A DNA stretch of 64,000 bases from Fimicolochytrium jonesii (GCF_025526975.1 NW_026515700.1:248001-312000), one strand, 5' to 3'. Counted from the stretch's first letter, positions 1 to 55,286 are shown. Notes: a model not told the origin generated them from the letters alone. A program made the numbers and translations.

Positions 1-11
1 GGCCCATCCGC

Positions 12-63
12 CTCTGCGCCAGCTCTGCGCAGTCTCTGCAAAGTCTCCGCCCCAGCTCTGCGC
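12..63 (+). repeat. Subterminal repeat array, 5 x CTCYGCNN with exact 11-bp period
   Basis: ctctgcgc at 12, ctctgcgc at 23, ctctgcaa at 34, ctccgccc at 45, ctctgcgc at 56. Confidence 0.85.
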
Positions 64-211
64 TTCCCCATCCCGGGCACCCCCCCCCCCCCCCCCCCCC
101 GCGGCGGACAGCCATTGCCCCTGGGAAATAGATAGGGGTGAGTGGAAGAGGGGGGATGGGGAGGAGACGGGGAGGGACGAACCTCATCTTCGGATATACT
201 GGTAGTTTCGT

Positions 212-1709
212 TCAACCACTTTGCGTGGAAGTTGAGGAGCCGTATGGTTTCGCCCAGTTCGAGGCGCACGACGATGTTGGTGCAGGGTTCGTGGTCGTTT
301 CGTGGTGGTGGTGTGGGTACGGATTGTCCTCATCATCAGGGAGGCCGTATTTCCGGATGGCCGCGGCCGTCGCCAGGGGCAGTGTCACAACAGCCGTGTG
401 GCGACTGCGGCCAGACGTGTCAAGCACCGCCGTTCCGTGGAGCTTGTGAGGCATCCACGTCCACATGCAGTCCGGCTGCAGCACCAAGTAGAAGCCTTGC
501 TCTGGCAGCGCAAATACCCACTCGCCGACGACGGTTGGCGGAGCGGCGGCGTAGCCTGCCGCCCATTGCCTGCATAGCTTGCGGGCTTGAAGCTCCTCCG
601 GAAGCTCCTCCTTGGGGGTCGGCTTCCATTTGGCGCGGCCTGTGTTCGGGTTCAGCTCGCCGGCTACGCCGTCGTCCGACGGGTCGGAGTGAACGACCAC
701 TTGATAGTTGGTGGTGGCAAACATCGGGGGGAACTCATCGGAATGTGGCCCGTACACCTCTGGCATGGCCATCATCAGGTGGGCCGCCGCGGTGGGGTTG
801 GTTTGGCGAGCTCCTGCAGCAATCGCTTGGGGAAGGCCTTTTCCAAGGCGACCAGGAACTTCTTTGCCGACATGTCTGCCCCTCCTTTCATTGAATAGTG
901 CGACGTCCCCCTGGCATATCCCGAGTTCTTGTTGCCACGACGAAGCCCAGCGGCGTGCATTGTGCCCCTTGAGGCCTTCCATCGAACCACAGCCGGCCGG
1001 GATCCACACGACTCGACGATGAGCCCCAGCCGCAGGTTGTGTTCGCGACGGCCCGCACTGTTGTACGAGATTGTGGCCACAAGGGCGCCGTGCTTGTCGC
1101 GGATGTAGATGTCGCCCCCCCCCCCCCCCCCTCGGGGTTTAATTCGCTCAAGCCCATCCAGGCCGCTCGTCTCTCCCCAAACCCCGCATAGACCATCTCA
1201 CCATCCCAGGCATTGCACGAGGCGGGCGTTGGCACCACGATGTGAGCAGCCGGGCGGCTAGCGGAGGGCTGGGGGTCCACCGAGAAGTCGGCCGTGGTAA
1301 GACTGCCATCGCTGATCGCGGTGATGATGCCGCACTGGAGCCCAATGTGGTGCTTGGCGCGCTTCTTCTGGTGACGGGACCGCGTTGGCCTATTGATCCA
1401 CCAGCCCCAAAGGGTGGGGTTGTCTTGCTTGATCTTCTTTGAAAAAAGGCCAATCGCCTTGGCCTTGTCTTCTAGGCTGGCGTCCCGGGCGGCAAGGCCG
1501 GCGTCTACCAGCAGGGGATACAAAAAGGCCACCGTGTCGCCGAAGATAGCTGTGGCATGGCTCTGGCCCATGCCCATCAGAAGAGCCTTGACCGCGGTGG
1601 GTGCGACGGGGGGCGTGGCCTGTGGCGCGGTAGAGGGGAAGGGGGGGAGGGAAGGTGTTAGCAGCTCAGCCCGCGAGATCAGCGTATAGCAAACACGCTC
1701 AGGCAGCAT
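212..1709 (-). CDS. TET/JBP-family 2OG-Fe(II) dioxygenase, split by two 1-nt frameshifts (error or pseudogene)
   Basis: Joining ORFs 888-1709, 775-1080 and 212-1009 gives ...DIYIRDKHGALVATISY...RGTMHAAGLRRG...FATTNYQVVVHSDPSD...GEWVFALPEQGFYLVLQPDCMWTWMPHKLHGT...SRHTAVVTL. The HxD (683-691), distal His (437-439) and 2OG-binding Arg (401-403) occur in the order and context typical of TET/JBP. The frameshifts fall at the C17 tract (1115-1131) and at a short A run near 802-804. Confidence 0.72.
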
Positions 1710-1710
1710 G

Positions 1711-1884
1711 GCCCATGCAGGTCAACCTCCCGCAAGCGGCGGTCGTGCTCAACATGGACCGCGAGCCCAGGCGGCCAACACCCAGCGGAGACGCCCAGAC
1801 AGCACAGCCCATGCAGGTCGACCTCCCGCAAGCGGCGGTCGTGCTCAACATGGACCGCGAGCCCAGGCGGTCAACACCCAGCGG
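1711..1884 (+). repeat. 78-bp direct repeat, 2 copies, 96-bp period
   Basis: 1711-1788 and 1807-1884 differ at 2 positions. Confidence 0.9.
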
Positions 1885-1894
1885 CCACTCACCT

Positions 1895-2073
1895 CGCTTG
1901 ACGTTCCCATGCTCAAATGCGCTTGCTCTGCGTGAGTTGCCGGGCTTGAGCTGGAAGGAGGTGGGCGCTGGCCAGGGGGGTGAGGGGGCCGTTGTCCGCC
2001 GCGAGCGCTTGACGTTTCCATGCTCAGAGTGTGCTCTGCGTGAGTTGCGTGAGCTGCGAGCGCTTGACGTTTC
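1895..2073 (+). repeat. Degenerate repeat CGCTTGACGTTYCCATGCTCA...TGCTCTGCGTGAGTTGC
   Basis: Copies at about 1895-1940 and 2006-2048, with a partial copy (gcgcttgacgtttc) at about 2060-2073. Confidence 0.8.
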
Positions 2074-2267
2074 GTGTGAGAGGAGGAGACCGTGGTCTTG
2101 GAGATGCGGCGACAAGCCACGACTGCGCCATAACTGCGCCAGGCTGTAAATCCTCCCCGCTATCCGCAATCATTACCACAGCACTGACGCGCCTTCTTTG
2201 ACACACAGCCATCAGCAGCCATCACGGCAATCACCTGCAACACCTGTCTCGGCACAGCACAGCCAAC

Positions 2268-5140
2268 ATGTCATCACACCAGGCGCTCCAGGGGCACCTG
2301 TGGTGTGGCATCTTTACTGGAGCAACCACACCACGGCGGAAGAGGAGGAAGGTTGCTCCGGTTACCCCGCGATTGCCCATACGTCTGCCAGCCACACCAT
2401 TGCAACCCCCACGATTCGAGCTCCCGCCCTCTGTCCATCGCCACTTGCCCGAAGCAATTGCAGACATGGTTGGCGAGAGCTCCAGCGATGAAGACGGGCA
2501 ACAGCAGCAGCAGTGAGGGCTTTCACCCATGGACAGGGGTCTGCAGCGTCCGTTGAACCTCCCTGCTCCCATCCCTTTCCTTTTTCCCAGCACACCGGGT
2601 GGACCCCTGGTGTATGAACCCCCGCCACCACCACCCCTGCCACCACCACCAGCTCAACGACCCCGCCCGCAGACACACGCCAGCATGAAGGTTTCCCTTC
2701 ACCGAATCCAAAATCACAATCAAGTCCAAAGGGAGCGCCTGACAACGTTCATCGCCGATGTTCACGTCCTTGCGCGCCACACCACCTTCTTTATCAAGTA
2801 CTACCTTGGTGAGTTTTTGAGGTACACTATACTGTATATTTCCCATAAAACAATGTCCTGACTGCTACATCTGCCCACCCCACCACAGCTGACCATCCTC
2901 TACATGATTTCCCGGACATCAGCAACAAGCGCGTCAGTGTGATGTTTGACCTGCTCAACAATCCAGGCTACAATGGCAATCCGCTCATCGCGCAAGAGTT
3001 GCGTCCATGGGTTCAAGACTACTGTGATGTTCACGGATTCGCCCCCATCCGCATGCGAAATTGCCAACAGACCGCAGCGTACACGGCTACGAGCATCCTC
3101 ACAAACCTCAAAGTTAACGTGCAAGAGCATTTCATGCAAATGTTTCTGCGCTACGTCAATGAAAGGCTTGGTTTGAAGCAAGTCGAACGGCATCTCCGGA
3201 GAGCGCAGCGGCGATGCTATTATCATCGTGTCCGTCAATTTACAAAGTACGCGACGTTTGAAGAGTACCCAACCAAAGAGGAGCTTGCGCGCCTCACACG
3301 ACTTGAGTGGACCATCCTCGACGAGTTATGGGCTTTGTTTCCTCTTCAGGATGAGCCGCTTGCGTACAGCCTTGCGGTGGAAGCAATGCCATATTTAGGT
3401 GAGCTATGTCCCGTACATTTACCCCCCCCCCCCCCCCCGCGGCTTCCTCTTTTGTCTAATCATGGTCCGCACCTGCCCTCGTCATAGGCGCCTACTGTGA
3501 GCTCTCACGTCTCTATGAGCGCTGTGGAATGCGGCTGTTTTCAGCTATCCCGCTGCGCAAATCTCGAATCCAGTCATCTGTTCGGATCGACAAGAGGATC
3601 CTAGGCACTCATATCCTGGGCTTGAGCCAAAGTCGCATGGGGAAATTCACCGATGAACGCAAGCGGGAGCTGTGGGGGCAGTTTCTCAACGTGAAGGTAA
3701 GTCTCTATCCCTCTGCGCTTATTTCACTCACCTCCCCTCGCTGAATGACAGATTGCAGGAGAAGGTCTTCAAGGATTGAAAGAAGCTTGGTCTCAAATTT
3801 GATGGGTCAATCAGCACAAACGCGTATTCCGCTACTATCCACTTCAAGAAGCCAGGGCTCAAGTATGGGCATCGGGCCCGGAAGCGCAGCAAGGCCCAAA
3901 TGCAGGAAGAAGTCAAGCAGCTGTACTTTGAGCACCACATTGCCAAACTACGGGAGGCTCCAAACATCGTCAGCATTGATCCGGGCAAGCGTGACCTCTT
4001 GTTCTGTCGAGACATCAAGAAGGAGCGGCCATTTAGGTACGTTTCAGCTCTTGCGGAATGTCGAACGAAGGGGATCGTGGGGACAGGGATGGGGAGGGTT
4101 GAGGAGGGCGCCGATGGGGATGGCGACAGCAGGGACAGCGGCAACAGCGGGTATAGCGGCAACAGCGGGGATAGCGGTGACAGTGGGGATAGCGGCGACA
4201 GCGGGGATAGCGGCGACAGCGGGGATAGCGGGAACAGCAGGGCAGTAGTAATCTCACAATGCACCACCCCATACCAGATACACATCCAATCAAAGGGCGG
4301 TCGAGACAAAGTCTCGGTACTTTCAAAGAGACATGACAGAGTGAAAGATCAATGCCGGCATCGCTGAGATGGAATCACATATTCCGTCGCACGAGAGCAT
4401 GAACATCGAGGCGTTCTCAGCGTTCATCGTGGATTACGAACATGCGGGTATGATGTTCTACTTCACTTTTCATTTTCAACCTTGGTAACACATGGGCTGA
4501 CATCCATCCATATCCCAGATCCCGCCCTGGATGAGTTTTACCAGGATGAGATTCATGTAGCTCCCAGATTCAAGGCGTTCTCACTGCGGCAAAAGTCTGA
4601 GAGCAAGCTCATCAAAAACATGCGAAGCCTGTATGGAAAGCATTTTTCGGTCATCTTGGGTGATTGGAGCGACGCTGGAAAAACCATGCGCTTTCAGGAG
4701 TCATCAAAGACCAAAGGGTGAGTGACTATCATTGGTAATATGTATTACAGTATGCCAACTCATCATGGAACAGATTCCGCACACTCTTTGCAAGAAACAG
4801 CATTCCATGCTACTTGCTAGATGAGTATCGAACGTCTTCCGTGTGCCCAGACTGCCACCGGCGTGTGAGGAAAAACATCCGACAGCGGCTGTCATCTCGG
4901 CCGTGGCAAGCTCGAAAGGGAAGAATGGAATTCGTCCATGGATTGGTGGGTTGCCCCAACCCCGAATGTATCAACCAAGACTGGACGCCATTTGAGATTC
5001 CTGGAAGACGACCACTACGACTATGGATGAGAGTGCACAATCGGGACGTCCTAAGCACCAAGAATTTCCTCTTGATTGTGCGTTCGGTGGTGTTTGGCAA
5101 TGGCCGCAGACCAGACGCATTCTCCCGTAACCGTAGGTAG
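2268..5140 (+). pseudogene. Fanzor1 (TnpB/Cas12-related RNA-guided nuclease), 7 exons, three in-frame TGA codons
   Basis: Exons by eye are 2268-2808, 2889-3398, 3488-3696, 3759-4036, 4278-4447, 4519-4717 and 4774-5140, all GT-AG and frame-consistent. Motifs: FSAIPLR..VRID, FDGSISTN, RuvC-I SIDPGKRDLL, RYTSNQRAVET, ILGDWS, RuvC-II LDEYRTS, Zn finger CPDC...CPNPEC, RuvC-III NRDVLSTKNF. In-frame TGA at 2514, 3777 and 4342. ATG 2529 is an alternative start. Confidence 0.9.
4122..4238 (+). repeat. Minisatellite, 13 x 9 bp (GGNGAYAGC-like) in Fanzor intron 4
   Basis: Alternating ggcgacagc / ggggatagc-like units inside the intron 4037-4277. Confidence 0.9.
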
Positions 5141-5280
5141 TCTAGAATCCTCACCCCATCCCATTTTCCGTGGTGGTTATCTGCCATCCACATCATTGTA
5201 CCTCTGCCTGAGGCGTCGCCGGTGATGGCAACTTTTACCTTCGATCAACTCATGATGGGCCATACCACAAATTTTTGTGC
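5141..5280 (+). ncRNA. Putative Fanzor omegaRNA (scaffold to about 5261 plus flank-derived guide)
   Basis: It lies between the Fanzor stop and the right element end. Stem TGCCATC 5182-5188 / GATGGCA 5224-5230, inner hairpin CCTC 5201-5204 / GAGG 5210-5213, and possible pseudoknot CATCAT 5191-5196 / ATGATG 5252-5257. Boundaries are inferred. Confidence 0.6.
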
Positions 5281-5417
5281 TGTTCTTCCTACGTCGGATC
5301 AAACTAAAGCCTTGCCACTATTTCACTCTATGTGGTCAACACTGCATACACTACATACGTCTCTCTATCTCTCGCCCACTGCGAAATGATCATATCGAAT
5401 ATCTGCACCTCATCCTA

Positions 5418-8400
5418 TCACCTTCTACGCCGCCATGCATCCCAGTTAACCTTCCCCATCGCCCGTCTCCTCTGTTGCGAGCGATCAGCTGAGCGAGCGA
5501 CCGCGTCCATGTGAGCAATGGGGACCATGCTTGGACGTCCGTGGGCTGACAATTGATACCAAAAAAAAATTTAGTTTTATGTGCGTGGGTGATGGTGGAT
5601 GGAAAGAGGGAGGAAGCGAGGGAAAAGGGAACGAGGGTCGTACCACATTGGAAGGGGAACTTGCATCGTTTAAGTTTCTCGATGAGGGCTGTGCATTCGT
5701 CCGCCGATAACGGGTCTCCGAACATGATCGCCGAGCTATATTCAAAGAGAGGAATTTTGCAATCAAGAAGAGAACAACAAACAGTACAACGACGAAGGGA
5801 CACCTTACCGGCACGCCTTCGACCACAATATCTCCAAGATCCCCCTCGGACACCTATCCTTAACACCAGTCCCGCTAGATTCTTCAAGCCAGTACAGATG
5901 CTGCCTGATCAGATCCCTCGCCACGCCGGGATCCACTGCGCATCTATCTGCGATCAGCCGCGGGAGACTAGTCAACATCAAGCTCGTGGGGGCGTCCGGG
6001 TTCGAAAGGATCTGGGTGTTGGCGGAAGGCTGGATGGCGGTATTGGACGTCGACGGAAGGGAGAATACTATGCCCCAGGATGTGAAGGCGGCGGCGTGAC
6101 GGAGGGCGGCTTGTGCTTCGCGCGACGGGAGACTGACGCGGAGAGGCGGATCGAGGGTGATTTTATCCACGCAACGTTGCGGATGAGGGACCGCGCCTTC
6201 AATAGGCTGCTCGGCCGCCGCCTTTGAATTTGGTTTAAGTTCTTCATCGGGAATCACAGGGGTGACAACCTCATCCACAATCCACAAGTCCTCCAAAAGC
6301 TTCTCCAACCGCACCCTCTCATCCGCGGCATGCTGATCGACGATGAGCATCATCTCCAGGGCCCCGTCGTCGCCCACAGCGTTGCAAATGATGAATTTCT
6401 TATCCACTTGGGCAATCACCTGCACCCGCTCAAACAGCTCTCGGGTGATGTGCTGCCGTACATTCTCCACCGTGACGCCGTTGAACAGGTGGTTGGCTTT
6501 ATCGGTGAAGCTGCGGGGAGCGGCGTCTGTGATGACGGAGCTGGAGCGGAGCTGCTTTTCGCCGCGTTTAAAGACTGGGTTCTTCCATTTCTGTGACAGC
6601 GGGGAAGTCAGGAAGGTCCATGCATGCCTATATAACTTCCCCGTATTACCCTTAATGCATCACCCAGCTTCAATTGTCCAAGTGCCCCGCCCGTAGAGAG
6701 CCCTTCGCTTCGCGATCTCTTCACTCTGGAGGTGTTGACGAAGGGGTTTCCTGATCCGACTCCCGAACCTTCTTTCTCTCTCGGCTTCGTATTGCCAGGT
6801 AACGCTCGATAGCTATAAGGGAAGAGAATACTTGGAGATATTCTTCAGCTGAGTGAGGCCCCAATCTGTCATGCTTACGAATTGCCAGTCCTGGTATCAA
6901 CATAAAAGCTGGAGTTCTGCTGCATATTCTCCACGATGGCAAACTCATCCCCCGTCTCTGTCCTAACCACCGCATGTTCACCACCTTGGCGAGAGTTGTG
7001 AATCGACTTCGATGTCGAATCGTACAGCATTTGCCCGGCAGGTTTTGCACTTCTTGTCGGAACTGGAAGCGCAATATGTAGTGGGAGTGTCGCCTGTAGC
7101 CGACTGCGCTCCATGTTGGACTCTTGCACACTGTCGGGGTCGGAGTCGATATCGGAGGTTTCCCCTACTAACGAGTTCAGGTCGTTGGCATCTTGTGTGA
7201 AGTCGTTCTCGATCAGGAAGTCAGAGACGATGTCCTCGACCATTTGCGTTATGAAATCCCAGTCCTGATGTCCGACATGTTTTTGAGATACTTCGTGTTG
7301 GCTGAGGTTCGTGACAAAATACTGCTTACCGCAAACTCAACAACGTTTTTTCCGGGATCCAGAAGGATATCGAACGTCCCCGGAGGACACAGAACCTTCA
7401 GAAAGAAGACGGGAAACTTCTCGCTGGTCTTCGCGCTATATTCTGCCAACCGATCAACGATGGTTTGGAAGTCGAAGGAATAAAACCAGTACAGTACGTA
7501 CTCCCTTTCTTTGCCGGCGATCCGTCATCAAATCCCAAAGTCAATCCCTCATCGGGGCCCTGCAAACATCGTAGTATGCCTTTTTAGCAAGCCGTATGCT
7601 TATTGAGACAAGATCTTCTTACATTCCCTCCAAATGAACTCCGCAAGAAGAGGCGATTGATCGTCGAATGTAGAAGATTTGGGGATAGAAAGTGATGGTT
7701 CACATCTGGCGGCAGCGAAAAGTGCGGTTTGAACACTGGACGTGGCAGAACCTTTTTCGGCTTCAAACACCACGGGAACCTACATATGTATTGATGACGC
7801 TGCACACGCTCAGTACAAGTACTCTGCGAGGGAAGTGTCAACGGAATAGCCAAACCTTTGATGGATATCCGCGGAGTGAGATGAACCCAGTAATCTGGAA
7901 TCCTTTCCGCATTTTCGAAACTTCTAATAGGTCCTAGGAATCCAACGTGAGTTTAAGGTAGGAGTGCGCCTGCGATCCCAATGGGAAAATACTTGGGCAA
8001 GCGACATCCCAAACAGCTGTCTGAACGTGGACTGCGGTGAATCCGCCTAAAACCATACATGAGTCAGCTGACATGGCTTACGGCAGGACATCCAGAGACA
8101 AATCACACCTTTCTGGTGGCCAGCACCTTTACGTTGCGGCTTTCGTCAGTCAGCGACAAAGTCAGTTGTGGGTTTGAGAGTGCTATTGGCTCCAAAGCTC
8201 TTTTTGTGCCTTCCATGACGTTTTCTGATTGAAGCATCTTCCGACGAACTGGTTGCTGCATCCGAAATCGTAATCAGCGGACGAGTTCCACCAGGAAGCA
8301 AAGGATATCCCGAGAAAATCAAATCTCACGTTGCAAAAGATGTCGTTCACAATGACCGTCGTTCCGCGTCGTCGCGCTGTCGGTGAAGGGCAAAACTTGC

Positions 8401-15113: not shown

Positions 15114-17280
15114 ATGATACCAGCACTTTACAAGTCCGGGATTTTGTCGTTGGCTTTGGCTATCCTTGCAGGTAACGCACAGCACAAATGGATTCTGTAG
15201 ACTGAGTACAGAAAGACCCCGAAACGCCGGCGGAGGATCCACGAACCGTGGAAATGAGAGCTTACCTTGCCCTGTCCCCCACAGATACCGCCCAAGCAGC
15301 ACCATACATCCACCGCCGCGCCGCACTAACCACCACCACCCGCCCCCTCCGTCCCTCCCCCGGCAACCGCACTCACTACAGCACAGGCCAACCCCGCCTC
15401 GGCTCCTCAACCGCCGACCCAACCTTCCTCACCACCGCCTCCGGGCCCGTCACGATCCTCACCCCCCACGAGCGAGCCACGGCCGTGCACGCCACCCAGC
15501 TCAAAGAAGCCAACGCGGCATGGGGCGCCTCGCAGAATCTGAGTATTACGTGGAAGCAGTTCCCGGAGGGGAGTGATTATGCGGCGGATTATGTGAACCA
15601 GGTGCTGCAGGCGTGTAGGACTGGACAAAGTTCGTTTGATGTGGTGTGGGTGGAGAGCGCGTATGTTGGGGCGCTGAGCGAGTGTTTGGAGGATGTGTGG
15701 GCGTGGGATGAGGCGGCGGCGGGGGGGCACGCGGAGGTGGTTGCGAGAGGAGGGGTTGTGGCTGAGCGGTTGGGTGAGTTTTTGAATATTCCTTCTCTTT
15801 GGCTGGATGTGGTTCTTTCGCATTTGCATCCGTGCTTGGTTGTCTACCCTCACCTCACAACGGGTCATTAATGGACGCATCTAACTCTCTCTCTATAATG
15901 CTCCACAACACAGTGGCACTACCCGCGGAGCTATCCTTTGGAATCCTTCTATACAACAGCGACCTGCTTGAGCGCTATGGTTACGGGTACCCGCCGGACA
16001 CTCTCAACGAATTCGAAGAAATGGCCACGGCTGTGTTGATGGGCGAACGGATGCTGGAGAATTACAAGATGGCCGGGTGGACTGGACCGTTAAGTTGTAA
16101 GTGTGTGAGAGAACAGGAATCCGTTCAACATGGAATCCTTGTCTGCAGTTTTGTCGAGGATGGAAAGAAAGCTAATCTCTACAACGGCCTCCTTCCGTCA
16201 ATCCCTCTCCCAGCCTCGGAAGACCTGACCTCCACCGTCGCCGAATGGATCCAATCCATCGGCTCCAGTATCATCGACGACAACGGTTCCGTGACCGTCG
16301 GTACAACACAAGTTGCCAATCTCCTCGCCCGTCTAACCCGCTGGCTCGAATCCGGCATCATCGACCCTTCAGACGTAGGCCAATCCACCCTCACCTCCTC
16401 CCTCAATCGCTTCCTCGCGGGACAGGCGCTGTTCGCGCGTACCACCACCGCCCACGTCCCCGGCATCATCTCCTCGGCGTCCTCCGCCGGTTTCGACTGG
16501 GGAATCGCGCCCGTACCCTCCGATCTCGAGAGCGGGCTCGGAGTCGGCACAGCAGAGGGGTGGTTGGTGGGCACGTACCGACACTCCCAAAACAAGGCGG
16601 GGGCGATGAAGGTGGTGGAGTACCTAACCTCGCAGGAATACCAGAAGGCCAAGATCCTGGATCTGGGCGCCGCGATGGTCGGGACGTATCCGTCCTTTTT
16701 GCTGGACCGGTCGATCTGCCAGGCGTACGGAACCGTGCGCTCCACGTCGCTGTGTATGGTGTACTCACAGGTTTCGGTGAATCGAAGGCCCGTGTCGCAG
16801 GCGGGCGCCCGGTATGCCAATGTGACTGCGGCGGTGCAGGCGACGGTGTTGGAGGTGATGACGGGTGCGACGGCGATTGTGCCGGCGTTGAAGGCGTTGG
16901 ATGCGAGGTTGCGGGTGATTATGGGGCAGCCCGCGGTGGAGCTCTCGTTGGAGATTGATGATAGTATTGTTGTGAGGCCTGGGAAGAAGTCCTTGGATCA
17001 GCTGGGGACTCAGCTGGCGGGCTTGTGCGTTGTTCTGGCTGTGACGGCGGTGGTGGTTGTTGGCTTGAGGAGGACGCAACGGAGGGAAATTGAGAAGCAG
17101 TTGATGGCGGGGAATCCCGGCCAGAATCCACCTCAAGGACAAGCGGGTCCGTCGAGCCCAGGCACTGGGGATGGGCAGCCGGAGATGAGGGAAGCTGGAT
17201 CAAGCTCATCAAAGCAAGATAAGGGCAAGGGAGCAGAATACGAGGCGCTGATCGACAAGTCAGAAAAGATCGAGATCTGA
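15114..17280 (+). CDS. Membrane-anchored extracellular solute-binding protein (ABC sugar-binding family-like; multi-exon)
   Basis: Signal-peptide-like MIPALYKSGILSLALAILA, then FDVVWVE, ALPAELSFGILLYNSDLLERYG..PPDTLNEFEEMA, WGIAPVP, AMKVVEYLTSQEYQK, a single C-terminal TM helix and a short tail. Confidence 0.75.
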
Positions 17281-29726: not shown

Positions 29727-30594
29727 TCAAGACGCAATGATCCGATAGTTGTCGTCGACATCCTGCAATGCAGGGCTCCGACGACGTCGGTCGAAACGCC
29801 GATTGATTGCTCCTATGGCTTCATGTGGCCAGGAGTACATCCAATGTCCGCCAAAGTATTTGTCGCCATCATCTAGACGCCCATCCGCACTATACAAAAA
29901 GTTGTCAGCGGTGAGGTAGATATTCTTGCGCGGTTTCACCGTCTGCAATACAAACGTCATGTAACGCTCGATGATGTTCAACATCTCCTCCGGGTTGCGA
30001 TCCATCAAATAGTCCATCAACTCATTCCTACCCGTGTGAGGGTTGGCAAGCACCAAATGCACCCATAGAAACGTCCAGACCACACAGTAGCCTTCCTCCA
30101 GACGGAATCGCGCTTGCAGACTTTGCGGACCTGCCCGATGTCTGCGACCAGGTGTGACAAGCGATCGCTGTAAAGACATTTTCCAGCGACCATCAAGCCG
30201 CAACGAAGCGTTGTTCACTACTCTCTCAATAGCGGTATACCCGTCCTTCCCAAATCCATGAGGATCAAAAAGCTGATACACGTTGTGATGAAAGTCAAGA
30301 ATCAGCACGTTCGCATGACCCCATCTTTGCCCTTGCCTCGAGAGAAATACGCCAACCACCATGAACCGCGTTGTACAGTTCTTCAAAAGCGTCCCATAGT
30401 CGCTCCCTACCGATAGCCTGTTCCACATACAGGCTCGCTCCAGGGGAATGTGTCACAAGCTTGGGATCGATGAATGAACCTTCTTCCAGAGCTTCCAGGA
30501 AAGAATGGAGACCCCTGAAATCGCCTCCGTAAGTACGACTCGGCGGGTACTTGTCGATATCAATGAAACTTATGTATGCGGGATAGATGGGCAT
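29727..30594 (-). CDS. Intronless putative cysteine protease (His-Asp-Gln-Cys order), probable frameshift near 30430-30455
   Basis: GHANVLILD..YQLFDPHG...GPQ..EGYCVVWTFLWVHL. The N-terminal ~50 codons from ATG 30594 are in a different frame. Confidence 0.55.
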
Positions 30595-30660
30595 TCTGGC
30601 GTTAGACCCTGCTTAGACCCTGCCTACTTCTGACATTAAACTTTGTGACTTCCCAAAAGA

Positions 30661-31644
30661 TTACAATACAGTGATAGACCTAAAATTACGCGCCTCACGC
30701 ATAAACATCCCTGTAGGATCGTCTTCGCTCATGGTGATATCGCTGAGGTCATCTGAGAACATAACGCGGACCTGCTCAATCCGATCCTCCCGAGCTGCAA
30801 GGAGGTCCTGTGGGCTGAAACCACTGACTTCGGACCAGTTGTCGCTATCTCGTACAGCAGCTACAGCAGCGTCATTCTCCGCGAGTGAGTCGATATCGAT
30901 TCCGGCCACCTCGTATGCCCATCTTTGCACAGACGAAGTGCAAGAATACCTTGGTGGAGGGCGTGTGCTATCGAAGGCCACCAATCCGCCGCTGGGGAAA
31001 TCCTTATCATACGATTCAGTTTCCGGCAAGTGACCTTTCGGCTCGTCCGAACTCCGACCATCTTCCTTGTCCTCCCTGTCTTGATCTCCATCCTCCTCAT
31101 CCTCATCCTCATCCTTGTCGTCCCTATCTTCATCTCCACCCTCCTCATCCGCATCAGGAAGATCCATCATGGCTAACGTATCTATCAGAACATCCAGTCG
31201 ATCCCGTTCCTCCGTTGGGACAACTGGTACGGGGTGCTTAGCCTTCTTTGTCCTAGCCATGGTGACTTGTATAGCAGGTTTGAGGCAAATATACGCGGGA
31301 CTGCGATCCCATCCGTCCACAGTCTTCAAAGCTCCATGTTGGTTATGTGAAGGAGTTGGCGCGAGAGCGAGAAACCGGTCTCTCTTCTCCGAATGATCGT
31401 TAAACTGTGTTCTGATGTCTCTCCCACCAAAACCGGTACAGAAGTGTACGGAAAACGTGTTCCCTAGGCGACCCCGTACGTAGCAAAGGCGGGACCCCGG
31501 AACCACACTATCGCTTTGACCGGACTGGCGCGAGTGTTGAGAATACGCGGCCGTCGACACCTCGCTAGGGATGACAACGATTGCGCAGAAGGTCCCCGCT
31601 TGTGGGATGAAAGTTTTGTTCTTGTTCTTGTTTTGTTTTGGCAT
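30661..31644 (-). CDS. Intronless hypothetical protein, globular N-domain plus acidic tract
   Basis: 327-aa ORF with a beta-rich N-terminal ~150 aa followed by a D/E-rich segment. Confidence 0.6.
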   Translation of the reverse strand: MPKQNKNKNKTFIPQAGTFCAIVVIPSEVSTAAYSQHSRQSGQSDSVVPGSRLCYVRGRLGNTFSVHFCTGFGGRDIRTQFNDHSEKRDRFLALAPTPSHNQHGALKTVDGWDRSPAYICLKPAIQVTMARTKKAKHPVPVVPTEERDRLDVLIDTLAMMDLPDADEEGGDEDRDDKDEDEDEEDGDQDREDKEDGRSSDEPKGHLPETESYDKDFPSGGLVAFDSTRPPPRYSCTSSVQRWAYEVAGIDIDSLAENDAAVAAVRDSDNWSEVSGFSPQDLLAAREDRIEQVRVMFSDDLSDITMSEDDPTGMFMREARNFRSITVL

Positions 31645-32039
31645 CGTGTGCTGATAGGTTTTCTCAATGCATCTGCCGATCTGTTACGCAAAGTCAATAA
31701 GGTAGACGCAGATGGGAAGGCGTTAGAATGGTGCCAGTACGAGGTAGAGATCCGTCGTGACCCCTCAAGCAGAAAAAAATACGGTTCATCTTGGAATCGA
31801 ACTCGAGATGCTTTCAAAACATACACATCTTGCCCCAAATACACGAAAAATGGGAAAAGTTAGGATTGACTGACTCGGGGACACAAACAGCGGTCTGCAT
31901 CAGTCATCGGCGAAAACTTGTTGAAGACCTACGTATGAACGCGCGGACGTGGGAGAATGACTTGTGAACCGCATAGCCTACTAATATCATACACAGACCG
32001 TCAACACTCAACCACCTATCCGCAGAGTCCTTGTCCGTC

Positions 32040-53792: not shown

Positions 53793-53834
53793 TGAACTTG
53801 ACAGTTTCCAGACAAAATGATATTATATACAGTA

Positions 53835-55242
53835 CAGCCAACGGACATAAACCTGTGCACCCCCTCTCATTGAATTCAATGACCGTTTCACAAGCGGATG
53901 CGCGTTCCATCCAGCCTGCCTCCGGACAAGCCAACCTCCAGCCGGACAAGCCAGGATCTTACCGACATGCCCGCAATTGCGACCTCCATCTTCATGCACT
54001 GCTATGGGCAAACCACTCTCCCCTCAGAAGAGGGCTGCCATAGTGGTGCTGCACAGGTCAGGCAAGAACAAGCGACAAATAGCTGCACAGGAGGGGGTTG
54101 CACTCAGGACTGTTCAGTATACTATCAAGAAGTTTGCTGCTGAATCTGCGGACAGCCCAACGTCCTATCAGTCAAAAAAGCCACCGGGAAGACCAGCTAA
54201 GTATCAACCAGAGGACAGTGACTTGGAGGAGTTCCGCAGACTTGTTCTCTCAGATAGTCAGACACGAGAAAAGACACTAAAACAAATTCGGTTGGAATTC
54301 ATCGCTCTTACAGGTATCACGGCATGCGAAAAGACAGTGCGTCGTTACCTTCACAAACTCCTCCATTTGACCTCCCGCTTCAAAATCCACAAGCCGTTTT
54401 TGTCTGACGAGCACAAAGCAGCACGCCTTGCGTTTGCGTTGGAACATCAGCACTGGACAGTTGCGGATTGGTCACGGGTTGTGTGGACGGATGAGACGTC
54501 TTTTGATATTGGCTGGGTTCCCAAAATGCGATGTTGGCGTCTGCGAACTGAACGTTTTCACCTTGACTGTATCAGAGGCACTCGACGTAGCGGACGCAAA
54601 ACATTTATGTATTTGGGAGCATTTATTGGAAACGCTGTTGGTCCATTGACGCAGGTCCAGCCGGTTCAGCGTGAGGGCCAAGTTCGCGGTAGGGGTATCA
54701 ATTCCACTGCTTACGTTCAGCATTTAACCGCTCATCTTTTGCCAATGTGGCAAAACCTTGAGATTTTTGTTCCCGACCTCCTTTTCATGCAGGACAACGG
54801 CCCTATCCACACTTCTGCCGAAACGCGCCAATTCTTTGCCGAGCATGGCATCAACATCATGCCGTGGCCAGCGCAGAGCCCCGATCTCAACCCAATTGAA
54901 AACCTCTGGGGGATTGTCAAGCGGGAGGTATCGCAGGCTAATGCAAATGCGGTGGGACTGGATGGTGTTGTGCAGCAGGTGTGGCCAACAGTGGAAAGGC
55001 ATTTGGATAACCTAGTTGGATCGATGCCGACAAGGATGCAGGCAGTCATTGTTGCAAACGGAGGAACGACACGGTATTAATAAGGGTATTAGGCAGGAAC
55101 CGAAGTCTAGATTTCATCTAGATTAGGTTCCTTATTGATCCCCGAGACTAAGGATGATGAGTCCGCGTCTAAATCAGTTGCGGCAACGCGACCGGTCACT
55201 GACTTAGTCTCAAGGGGTGCACAGCTTTATGTCCGTTGGCTG
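53835..55242 (+). mobile_element. Complete Tc1/IS630-family DNA transposon, 1408 bp
   Basis: 29-bp TIRs at 53835-53863 and 55214-55242 (CAGCCAACGGACATAAA[C/G]CTGTGCACCCC, 1 mismatch), with TA at 53833-34 and 55243-44. Confidence 0.96.
54004..55080 (+). CDS. Tc1 DD34E transposase, intact ORF
   Basis: N-terminal HTH regions, WTDETSF, FMQDNGPIH and SPDLNPIENLW, with 34 residues between the second D and the E. Confidence 0.96.
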   Translation: MGKPLSPQKRAAIVVLHRSGKNKRQIAAQEGVALRTVQYTIKKFAAESADSPTSYQSKKPPGRPAKYQPEDSDLEEFRRLVLSDSQTREKTLKQIRLEFIALTGITACEKTVRRYLHKLLHLTSRFKIHKPFLSDEHKAARLAFALEHQHWTVADWSRVVWTDETSFDIGWVPKMRCWRLRTERFHLDCIRGTRRSGRKTFMYLGAFIGNAVGPLTQVQPVQREGQVRGRGINSTAYVQHLTAHLLPMWQNLEIFVPDLLFMQDNGPIHTSAETRQFFAEHGINIMPWPAQSPDLNPIENLWGIVKREVSQANANAVGLDGVVQQVWPTVERHLDNLVGSMPTRMQAVIVANGGTTRY

Positions 55243-55286
55243 TACATGTCTTGACCTTCCCCATCCGCTGCCTATGTCCACGCTCT

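What the first reader, a model, noticed from the sequence alone, without database searches (positions are those of the whole stretch)
1..5261. Composite element pairing a Fanzor1 RNA-guided nuclease with a TET/JBP dioxygenase
Seen: a TET/JBP-like gene (minus strand) and a spliced Fanzor1 gene (plus strand) sit head-to-head about 560 bp apart between 8-bp inverted ends, with no transposase. Known: Fanzors ride on many eukaryotic transposons and use a 3'-end omegaRNA, while fungal TET/JBP genes travel with KDZ (Kyakuja-Dileera-Zisupton) and Plavaka elements and oxidise methylated DNA bases. I do not know of the two being described in one element. Inference: this could be a two-gene selfish module in which TET counters host methylation silencing or marks self, while Fanzor drives homing. 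More speculatively, it could be an RNA-guided DNA-modification system.
Basis: partly seen in the sequence, partly recalled or inferred. Interest (0 to 1): 0.92.

Follow-up and report, generated by a model that had tools for sequence, protein, structure and literature searches.

The report
Chytrid transposon pairing Fanzor with TET
A transposon family in a chytrid fungus repeatedly carries, head to head, an RNA-guided DNA cutter (Fanzor) and a likely DNA-demethylating TET-like enzyme, a pairing not found in the papers searched, which would likely let the element both copy itself back into vacated sites and resist the host's methylation silencing; this particular copy is broken.

Summary
The plus-strand gene is a 7-exon, 757-codon Fanzor1, 43% identical to SpuFz1. 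The minus-strand gene is a divergent TET/JBP-like 2OG-Fe(II) dioxygenase (HxD..H, RxT). It has no Pfam hit; support comes from ESM Atlas, motif order and a weak profile match. An identical protein is named Fimicolochytrium jonesii by its source. There, 7 of 10 retrieved TET-like gene models sit within 3 accession numbers of a Fanzor model (6 of 9 without this copy, P about 5e-8), so the pair is a mobile unit. This copy is dead: three R>TGA stops in Fanzor and two frameshifts in TET. Both genes show 5-6-fold excess CpG transitions, pointing to host 5mC on the element. Close Fanzor1 relatives elsewhere lack the dioxygenase, and Powellomyces has multi-copy TET-like genes without a detected Fanzor, so the pairing looks lineage-specific. 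Best reading (0.62): a non-autonomous DNA transposon with two independent helpers, Fanzor for homing and TET against silencing. An RNA-guided modification complex is unsupported (about 0.04). New variant of a known kind; interest 0.62.

The parts
1..8 (.). Visible part of the left inverted end, GGCCCATC; three more bases (TAT) are predicted just outside the window
   Evidence: Unique 8-bp inverted match to 5254-5261, chance 0.3%; extension inferred from the right end
12..62 (+). Three subterminal CTCTGCG repeats; two more at 1926 and 2034 between the genes; possible protein-binding sites
   Evidence: motif chosen after seeing the sequence, whole-window count not significant (7 of 100 shuffles reach it)
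212..1709 (-). TET/JBP-like dioxygenase gene, broken by frameshifts near 1160 and 802. GxM..G.R.G at 966, HxD at 745, distal His at 439, RxT at 403; N-terminal helical domain; start codon uncertain (1709 to about 1870)
1688..1879 (.). Two 96-bp tandem units (91% alike) at the 5' end of the TET-like gene; unit number differs among paralog models
1710..2267 (.). Region between the two start codons; inferred shared divergent promoter
   Evidence: sequence; promoter function inferred
2268..5140 (+). Fanzor1 gene, exons 2268-2808, 2889-3398, 3488-3696, 3759-4036, 4278-4447, 4519-4717, 4774-5140. RuvC D 3978, E 4823, D 5045; zinc-finger cysteines from 4844 and 4952; basic NLS-like stretch at 2334; premature TGA at 2514, 3777, 4342
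4104..4247 (.). 9-bp tandem array inside Fanzor intron 4; lies inverted in at least one other copy
5164..5264 (+). Predicted omegaRNA scaffold: TTTTCCG, a short hairpin, a longer stem, then the right end
   Evidence: Same TTTTCCG after the stop in relative L001/L002; two-stem fold not more stable than shuffles (z -0.5); position by analogy to SpuFz1 (PMC10432273)
5254..5264 (.). Right inverted end GATGGGCC plus ATA (likely terminus ...CCATA)
   Evidence: TA-ended like Spu-1 and like L006
5265..5279 (+). Host flank that would supply the guide; about 150 bp downstream of the stop of an MLH3-like (MutL_C) gene on the minus strand
   Evidence: guide role inferred from SpuFz1

Best explanation
This is a decayed copy of a multi-copy, transposase-less DNA transposon that carries a Fanzor1 nuclease and a divergent TET-like dioxygenase head to head, and the two likely work as independent helpers: Fanzor would cut vacated insertion sites so that repair copies the element back, and the dioxygenase would oxidise 5-methylcytosine on the element to keep it transcribed. 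Shown: gene structures, family of the nuclease, recurrence of the pair, CpG-biased decay, breaks in this copy. Inferred: (1) an unidentified transposase moves the element in trans; (2) one divergent promoter drives both genes; (3) an omegaRNA from the right end takes its guide from the host flank, as for SpuFz1; (4) the dioxygenase acts on 5mC, perhaps steered by its N-terminal helical domain; (5) the nuclease reads a TAM other than CATA, because its own right end reads CCATA and two of the SpuFz1 TAM-reading residues are changed; (6) the two genes met in the Fimicolochytrium lineage, by a TET-bearing element capturing a Fanzor with its omegaRNA or the reverse.
For: Recurrence: 7 of 10 TET-like models lie within 3 accession numbers of one of 49 Fanzor models and on contigs of the same length. 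Without this copy 6 of 9, P 5e-8; with one twin pair merged 5 of 8, P 1e-6. TET-linked Fanzors are scattered through one family about 92% identical. Nuclease: catalytic D, E, D kept in 32 of 34, 46 of 46 and 41 of 41 models covering them. Dioxygenase: HxD..H and RxT/S conserved in relatives at 27-36% identity; ESM Atlas hits to clusters carrying PF20515 (15% of members, score 0.95) and PF12851 (16%, 0.91); collinear 196-column profile match to phage TET/JBP, E 0.001, probability 20%, above 40 of 40 shuffles; same motif order as PU-type TETs in the supplement of PMC12730594. Methylation pressure: CpG transitions hit 68 of 155 Fanzor sites against 44 of 387 other C>T/G>A sites, and 33 of 111 against 15 of 251 in TET. 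All three stops are R>TGA. CpG o/e is 0.86-0.87 against 0.97-1.20 in 7 host ORFs. In Spizellomyces 5mC is confined to transposons (PMC12695648, passages). Independence: Spu-1 is a single-ORF element (PMC3627910, PMC10432273); 0 of 10 other Fanzor loci hold the TET-like gene; Powellomyces hirtus has three TET-like copies 92-95% identical and no Fanzor among 46 hits.
Against: No genome, reads or expression data were available, so adjacency rests on accession order and the ends rest on one copy with its left flank missing. 39 of 46 Fanzor loci have no retrieved TET neighbour and 3 of 10 TET-like models have no retrieved Fanzor neighbour; retrieval was incomplete on both sides. The dioxygenase has no Pfam, PHROGs, NCBIfam or PDB sequence hit, and the untrimmed profile match was only 7% probable. 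The copies decayed at CpG despite carrying TET, so any protection was partial or ended. Protein divergence among TET copies (10%) is no lower than among Fanzor copies (6%), so selection on TET within the family is not shown. Only 3 of the 10 other Fanzor loci hold 5 kb or more upstream. Homing by Fanzor is itself a hypothesis in the literature (PMC10530073, passages).
Confidence: 0.62

Rival explanations
1. Passive hitchhiking: a Fanzor with its omegaRNA replaced the transposase of a TET-bearing element (or the reverse), and the pair was amplified in trans without the dioxygenase helping.
For: Star-like burst and neutral-looking CpG decay in both genes; twin copies P0060/P0067 share the same TET frameshift, so a broken TET was duplicated with its Fanzor; Kojima describes TET genes as passively transferred between transposon families (PMC12730594).
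Against: Complete models with triad and RxT remain (P0003, P0019, P0020). Catalytic motifs are conserved against Powellomyces and metagenome relatives at about 30% identity, which shows long past selection.
Confidence: 0.15
2. Coupling at the target DNA without binding: the dioxygenase marks the element's own right junction against cutting, or clears 5mC or 6mA from target sites so that Fanzor can cut them.
For: The right junction reads CATA followed by the guide-matching flank, a perfect self-target under the SpuFz1 TAM (PMC10432273). CATA holds ApT, the 6mA context in Spizellomyces (PMC12695648). CcTET acts on 6mA as well as 5mC (as stated in PMC12730594).
Against: R96 is G in 13 of 17 models (R in 3) against R in 13 of 13 relatives, and N133 is A in 17 of 19, so a changed TAM explains self-avoidance more simply. 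SpuFz1 cuts without a dioxygenase.
Confidence: 0.1
3. The dioxygenase has another substrate (thymine as in JBP, RNA, or a CMD1-type product) and does not relieve silencing.
For: It is too divergent for any curated family hit; TET/JBP proteins have varied chemistry (PMC12730594).
Against: The nearest clusters are fungal TET-like and TET/JBP families; the element shows 5mC-type decay.
Confidence: 0.08
4. RNA-guided DNA modification: the dioxygenase binds the Fanzor-omegaRNA complex and oxidises bases at guide-matched sites.
For: Head-to-head linkage at 7 loci; these Fanzors have a roughly 110-residue longer Pro/Gln-rich N-terminus than SpuFz1; a Fanzor1 is known to bind a partner protein, a cyclophilin (PMC11423790, passages).
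Against: The nuclease triad is intact rather than dead. Both genes have relatives without a detected partner. Pair distances correlate only through one twin (r 0.23, 221 of 720 permutations).
Confidence: 0.04
5. Chance nesting of two unrelated elements at this locus.
For: 39 of 46 Fanzor loci have no retrieved TET neighbour.
Against: Six other loci repeat the adjacency (P 5e-8); no internal ends or duplications were seen between the genes.
Confidence: 0.01

Closest known systems
Spu-1 / SpuFz1 of Spizellomyces punctatus (Bao and Jurka 2013, PMC3627910; Saito et al. 2023, PMC10432273)
   Same: Fanzor1 at 43-44% identity with the same RuvC triad; multi-copy; no transposase inside; TA-ended; omegaRNA position after the stop.
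   Different: 5.3 kb with a second, divergent gene (Spu-1 is 2.1 kb with one ORF); six introns; inverted ends of 8 visible bp (11 at most) against 30-33; TAM-reading R96 and N133 changed, N385 is G; longer N-terminus.
TET+ fungal DNA transposons, PU-type TET/JBP (Kojima 2025, PMC12730594; Iyer et al. 2014, recalled, not held)
   Same: TET/JBP-like gene inside a multi-copy DNA transposon in a host with transposon methylation; motif order matches PU-type proteins.
   Different: Those 11 lineages are from rusts, mushrooms and Pezizomycetes and are classified by their transposases; none is described with Fanzor or from chytrids (0 hits for both words in main text and held supplement). Here a Fanzor stands where a transposase would.
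IS3EU transposons, including TET+ IS3EU (PMC12730594, PMC10045372)
   Same: Right end CCATA fits TAYGG..CCRTA; TA..TA termini; some families carry TET.
   Different: No IS3EU transposase or kinase gene, TIR far below 30 bp, 6-bp TSD not checkable; a possible carrier only.
Mariner elements with Fanzor or methyltransferase passengers (PGv-1, Mariner-2_PGv; PMC3627910) and plant VANDAL anti-silencing elements (cited in PMC12730594)
   Same: Transposons carrying accessory nucleases, DNA-modifying enzymes or anti-silencing factors.
   Different: There a methyltransferase stands in place of Fanzor, not beside it; VANDAL uses a sequence-specific protein, not a dioxygenase or an RNA-guided nuclease.

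Membership tests
Fanzor1 (SpuFz1 clade) | Full-length homology to a solved Fanzor1 | tested here: met
   E 5e-149 to 8gkh, 2e-37 to PpFz1; window model 43% to P0078
Fanzor1 (SpuFz1 clade) | RuvC triad with DPG motif and rearranged glutamate before the zinc finger | tested here: met
   IDPG, DEY, RD at 3975, 4820, 5042; kept in 32 of 34, 46 of 46, 41 of 41 models
Fanzor1 (SpuFz1 clade) | Structured omegaRNA at the right end | tested here: inconclusive
   Shared TTTTCCG with L001/L002 and a two-stem fold, but z -0.5 and no Rfam hit
Fanzor1 (SpuFz1 clade) | omegaRNA expression and TAM-dependent dsDNA cleavage | not testable with these tools
   Needs small-RNA sequencing and a TAM screen; this copy has three stops
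TET/JBP superfamily (filed as TET/JBP-like) | HxD..H iron triad and RxS/T 2-oxoglutarate motif in order | tested here: met
   HSD 745, H 439, RHT 403; conserved in Powellomyces and ENA relatives
TET/JBP superfamily (filed as TET/JBP-like) | Profile-level homology to known TET/JBP across the domain | tested here: inconclusive
   hhalign E 0.001, probability 20%, 196 columns, all catalytic elements in register, above 40 of 40 shuffles; 7% untrimmed; ESM Atlas 0.95 and 0.91
TET/JBP superfamily (filed as TET/JBP-like) | Double-stranded beta-helix fold | tested here: inconclusive
   Both AlphaFold2 models leave the catalytic region under pLDDT 50
TET/JBP superfamily (filed as TET/JBP-like) | Oxidation of 5mC, T or 6mA in nucleic acid | not testable with these tools
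   Needs an enzyme assay
Pfam PF12851 Tet_JBP or PF20515 (not filed as a member) | Score above the curated cut-off | tested here: not met
   No match among 12 members at E up to 10, with HMMER filters;
TET+ DNA transposons (Kojima 2025) | TET gene inside a repeated element with defined ends | tested here: met
   10 TET-like models, 7 beside Fanzor; inverted ends in this copy
TET+ DNA transposons (Kojima 2025) | Transposase of a named superfamily inside the element | tested here: not met
   None in 9 ORFs scanned; the two genes fill the element
IS3EU (not filed) | Termini TAYGG..CCRTA | tested here: inconclusive
   Right end CCATA fits; the left three bases lie outside the window
IS3EU (not filed) | TIRs longer than 30 bp | tested here: not met
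   Match ends after 8 visible bp
IS3EU (not filed) | 6-bp target-site duplication | not testable with these tools
   Left flank not held
Spu-1 elements (not filed) | Single ORF, about 2.1 kb, 30-33-bp inverted repeats | tested here: not met
   Two genes, 5.3 kb, 8-11-bp ends
KDZ (Kyakuja, Dileera, Zisupton) (not filed) | KDZ transposase in the element; 7-8-bp TSD | tested here: not met
   No transposase found; TSD not checkable
PlavakaB (not filed) | Termini CATCA..TGATG with 2-3-bp TSD | tested here: inconclusive
   CATCC at 5-9 and TGATG at 5253-5257 are near matches, but the flanks give no 2-3-bp duplication, only palindromic GGCC (PMC12730594)

The most novel reading that the evidence does not exclude
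A natural eukaryotic system in which an RNA-guided nuclease and a TET-like dioxygenase are functionally coupled: the dioxygenase either rides on the Fanzor-omegaRNA complex to rewrite methylation at guide-chosen sites, or sets the modification state that tells the element's own CATA junction from a vacant target, a restriction-modification-like self/non-self switch in a eukaryotic transposon.
Probability: 0.12. Interest if true: 0.93.

Novelty: new variant of a known kind. Interest (0 to 1): 0.62.

Why it matters
What Fanzors do for their transposons in eukaryotic cells is open, and eukaryotic hosts silence transposons by methylation, which would also shut off the nuclease and its guide RNA. 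A family that carries both a Fanzor and a TET-like enzyme offers a direct test of whether homing depends on escaping 5mC. It extends TET-bearing transposons to chytrids with a very divergent dioxygenase of unknown chemistry, and supplies a SpuFz1 relative predicted to read a different TAM. If the two proteins are coupled, it would be a natural RNA-guided epigenome editor.

Tried and rejected
No whole genome was held, so other copies, ends and TSDs could not be aligned. No sequencing run was listed, which says nothing on expression. AlphaFold2 on the TET-like protein: single sequence pLDDT 36; 12-row alignment pLDDT 40, confident only for helices at about 23-98. Foldseek gave no match at E 0.001; VIA-align gave best Z 5.5 with several winged-helix-like rows, too weak to name. 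The complex predictor was not available, so TET-Fanzor binding is untested. Pfam, PHROGs, NCBIfam and PDB sequence searches gave no dioxygenase hit. ESM Atlas gave nothing for P0003; the hits come from the Powellomyces relative P0062. The TET alignment found nothing in metagenome contigs or phage records. omegaRNA folding was not significant and Rfam was blank. Tree congruence: r 0.55 (66 of 5040) with all 7 pairs but 0.23 (221 of 720) without the twin; the Fanzor tree is star-like with low support. No second copy or short derivative lies in the window. The Tc1/mariner at 53.8-55.2 kb was rejected as the mobiliser because its TIRs differ. An intron at the TET poly-G run was rejected: paralogs read through it. 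Reading TGA as sense was rejected: paralogs have Arg at all three sites. Five look-ups of earlier findings returned nothing.


Full report
Observation. The plus-strand gene has seven exons between 2268 and 5140, all six introns GT-AG, and gives 757 codons with premature TGA stops at codons 83, 427 and 535 (window 2514, 3777, 4342). It is 86% identical to paralog P0054, 53% to a Gaertneriomyces protein (P0076) and 43% to P0078. P0078 carries the residue numbers published for SpuFz1 at all ten TAM and catalytic positions checked (PMC10432273). P0054 matches the SpuFz1 structure 8gkh at E 5e-149. The minus-strand gene runs from about 1709 to 212. Its paralogs have one continuous frame, while this copy shifts frame near 1160 and 802. 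GGCCCATC at 1 and its complement at 5254-5261 are each unique in the window; the chance of such a match in the 160 nt after the stop is 0.3%. The match ends after 8 bp. The next bases on the right are ATA, so the terminus probably reads ...GGGCCATA (5264) and the window probably starts three bases inside the left end. That is an inference: Spu-1 ends in TA (PMC3627910, PMC10432273), as does a short Fanzor1 element in L006.

Host and copy number. No genome or reads were available, so I used annotated proteins. The C-terminal TET exon found 5 proteins among 1500 candidates, all named Fimicolochytrium jonesii by the source, one 100% identical. The last Fanzor exon found 13 among 101, all from the same species. 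Cluster look-ups gave accession numbers for 10 TET-like and 49 Fanzor models, the latter in 46 loci. Seven of the ten TET-like models lie within three accession numbers of a Fanzor model, each pair on a contig of the same listed length. About 2.5-2.9% of accession numbers lie that close to a Fanzor model, so 6 of 9 without this copy has P about 5e-8. Merging the near-identical twins P0060/P0040 and P0067/P0042 gives 5 of 8, P 1e-6. This assumes accession order follows gene order, which is general knowledge and fits the window pair. Against a fixed pairing: 39 of 46 Fanzor loci have no retrieved TET neighbour, and three TET-like models (P0002, P0020, P0061) have none the other way. Retrieval was incomplete: eight more F. 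jonesii models had no accession look-up left, three on a contig of P0020's length, and gene callers often skip broken repeats. In a tree of a 153-column C-terminal region (40 F. jonesii models kept, 9 dropped for gaps) the seven TET-linked Fanzors are scattered through one star-like family about 92% identical, with low support. That fits a composite ancestor but does not prove it.

The dioxygenase. It has no hit in Pfam, PHROGs, NCBIfam or PDB sequences, and two AlphaFold2 runs left the catalytic region under pLDDT 50. A search of 1.84 billion representatives found 8 proteins, among them relatives in Powellomyces hirtus, Geranomyces michiganensis and unnamed ENA records. Across these, at 27-36% identity, HxD, a distal HxT and RxT/S are kept in order with GxM..G.R.G, PP.F.T.NY and F..PE.G. 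The same order is seen by eye in PU-type TET/JBP proteins in the supplement of PMC12730594. ESM Atlas, with the Powellomyces core, returned an unnamed basidiomycete cluster (0.97), a cluster with PF20515 on 15% of members (0.95) and one with PF12851 on 16% (0.91); it returned nothing for P0003. A profile of 9 core sequences against 19 phage TET/JBP proteins (from 102, thinned at 85%) aligned 196 columns with HxD, PEY, HG and RxS in register: E 0.001, probability 20%. Forty column shuffles reached at most 2.5%, the reversed profile 0.5%; the untrimmed comparison gave 7%. I call it TET/JBP-like at about 85% confidence and do not file it under either Pfam family. Its substrate is untested.

Methylation footprint. 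Comparing window codons with 55 Fanzor and 8 TET-like paralog proteins, changes explained by a CpG transition hit 68 of 155 possible Fanzor sites against 44 of 387 for other C>T/G>A changes. In TET the counts are 33 of 111 against 15 of 251. Per cell the excess is 5-6-fold, but cells count sequences, not events. All three stops replace Arg. CpG o/e is 0.83 over the element against at least 0.91 in 107 overlapping windows of that size elsewhere, and 0.86-0.87 in the two genes against 0.97-1.20 in seven host ORFs. In Spizellomyces 5mC is confined to transposons and 6mA marks expressed genes (PMC12695648, passages). So the host most likely methylates this element. That gives TET a purpose but also shows that it did not prevent decay.

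Distribution. Spu-1 is a 2.1-kb single-ORF element. None of 7 metagenome loci with Fanzor1 relatives at 36-46% (two are the same insertion) and none of 3 distant viral loci holds the TET-like gene; only three of the ten hold 5 kb or more upstream. P. hirtus has three TET-like copies 92-95% identical, as expected of transposon cargo, yet no P. hirtus protein is among 46 Fanzor hits of 418-1332 residues; split models would be missed. The pairing therefore looks specific to one lineage.

Mechanism. The best reading is a non-autonomous DNA transposon with two independent helpers. A transposase elsewhere in the genome would move it. Fanzor would take an omegaRNA from the right end (TTTTCCG at 5164, shared with L001/L002; fold not significant), use the flank as guide and cut the vacated site so that repair restores the element, as proposed for Fanzors in PMC10530073. 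The dioxygenase would oxidise 5mC on the element and keep both genes and the RNA transcribed, as proposed for TET+ transposons in PMC12730594. One detail is testable. The right junction reads CATA followed by the guide-matching flank, a self-target under the SpuFz1 TAM. Of the SpuFz1 TAM contacts, Q129, Q130 and Y345 are kept and R291 is R in 11 of 21. R96 is G in 13 of 17 models (R in 3; the loop is shorter, so the register is uncertain) against R in 13 of 13 relatives, and N133 is A in 17 of 19. A changed TAM is the simple solution; protection by a TET-made mark is the bolder one. The complex predictor was not available, so binding is untested. Pair distances correlate only through the twin.

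Comparison with what is known. It works like Spu-1 plus a TET+ transposon, and fails membership of Spu-1, IS3EU and KDZ on tested features. The right end fits the IS3EU terminus CCRTA, but the repeat is far under 30 bp. Searches for the pairing: Fanzor + TET (10 papers, 9 listed, seen as listings, mostly editing reviews), Fanzor + dioxygenase (4 reviews, listings), Fanzor + IS3EU (0), Fanzor + Fimicolochytrium (1, passages unrelated), Fanzor + demethyl + transposon silencing (0), and a looser search with nothing relevant in its listing. PMC12730594: parts 1-4 of 7 read, no 'Fanzor' or 'chytrid' in the main text or the held supplement. PMC10711439 and PMC10530073: passages only, no 'oxygenase' or 'methyl' in the main text; their supplements, including the table of Fanzor-associated ORFs, were not searched and could list such a neighbour. 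PMC3627910, PMC10432273, PMC11423790, PMC10045372: passages. Iyer et al. 2014 was not held and is recalled only. Subscription journals and Repbase were not searched.

Verdict. A real, recurrent Fanzor1 plus TET-like element in a chytrid, here as a dead copy. New variant of a known kind, interest 0.62. Functional coupling of the two enzymes is not excluded (about 0.12; interest 0.93 if true).

Noticed in passing
window 53832-55245: Intact-looking Tc1/mariner element: 32-bp TIRs at 97%, TA at both ends, DDE_3 and HTH_Tnp_Tc3_2 domains; also CpG-depleted (o/e 0.81).
   Followed up: partly
window 4037-4277: Fanzor intron 4 holds a 9-bp tandem array; models P0031 and P0074 translate this stretch from the opposite strand, so it is inverted between copies.
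   Followed up: partly
L006 2845-3417: A roughly 570-bp 5'-truncated Fanzor1 element with Spu-1-like inverted repeats and CATA at its left end, in a contig whose genes look like those of a giant virus (my reading of the ORFs).
   Followed up: partly
L001 6774-7526: This Fanzor1 relative has an N-terminal extension with a PIP-box-like stretch (motif recalled, not tested), which could tie it to PCNA.
   Followed up: no
window 5266-5279: A short palindrome in the flank right after the element's right end; may be a target-site preference or chance.
   Followed up: no
window 5417-7336: MLH3-like mismatch-repair gene (MutL_C) on the minus strand, ending about 150 bp from the element.
   Followed up: partly
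window 15778-17280: ORF with a bacterial-type extracellular solute-binding domain (SBP_bac_1/8) followed by a hydrophobic stretch; possibly a receptor-like protein.
   Followed up: no
window 29727-31683: Two long minus-strand ORFs (241 and 340 aa) with no Pfam match.
   Followed up: no
window 80-100, 1115-1131, 3422-3438: Three poly-C runs of 17-21 bases, all inside the element and none as long elsewhere in the window; the one in the TET gene is longer than in paralogs.
   Followed up: no
P0062, P0068, P0069 (Powellomyces hirtus): Three TET-like genes 92-95% identical: a probable TET-bearing transposon family in a second chytrid.
   Followed up: partly
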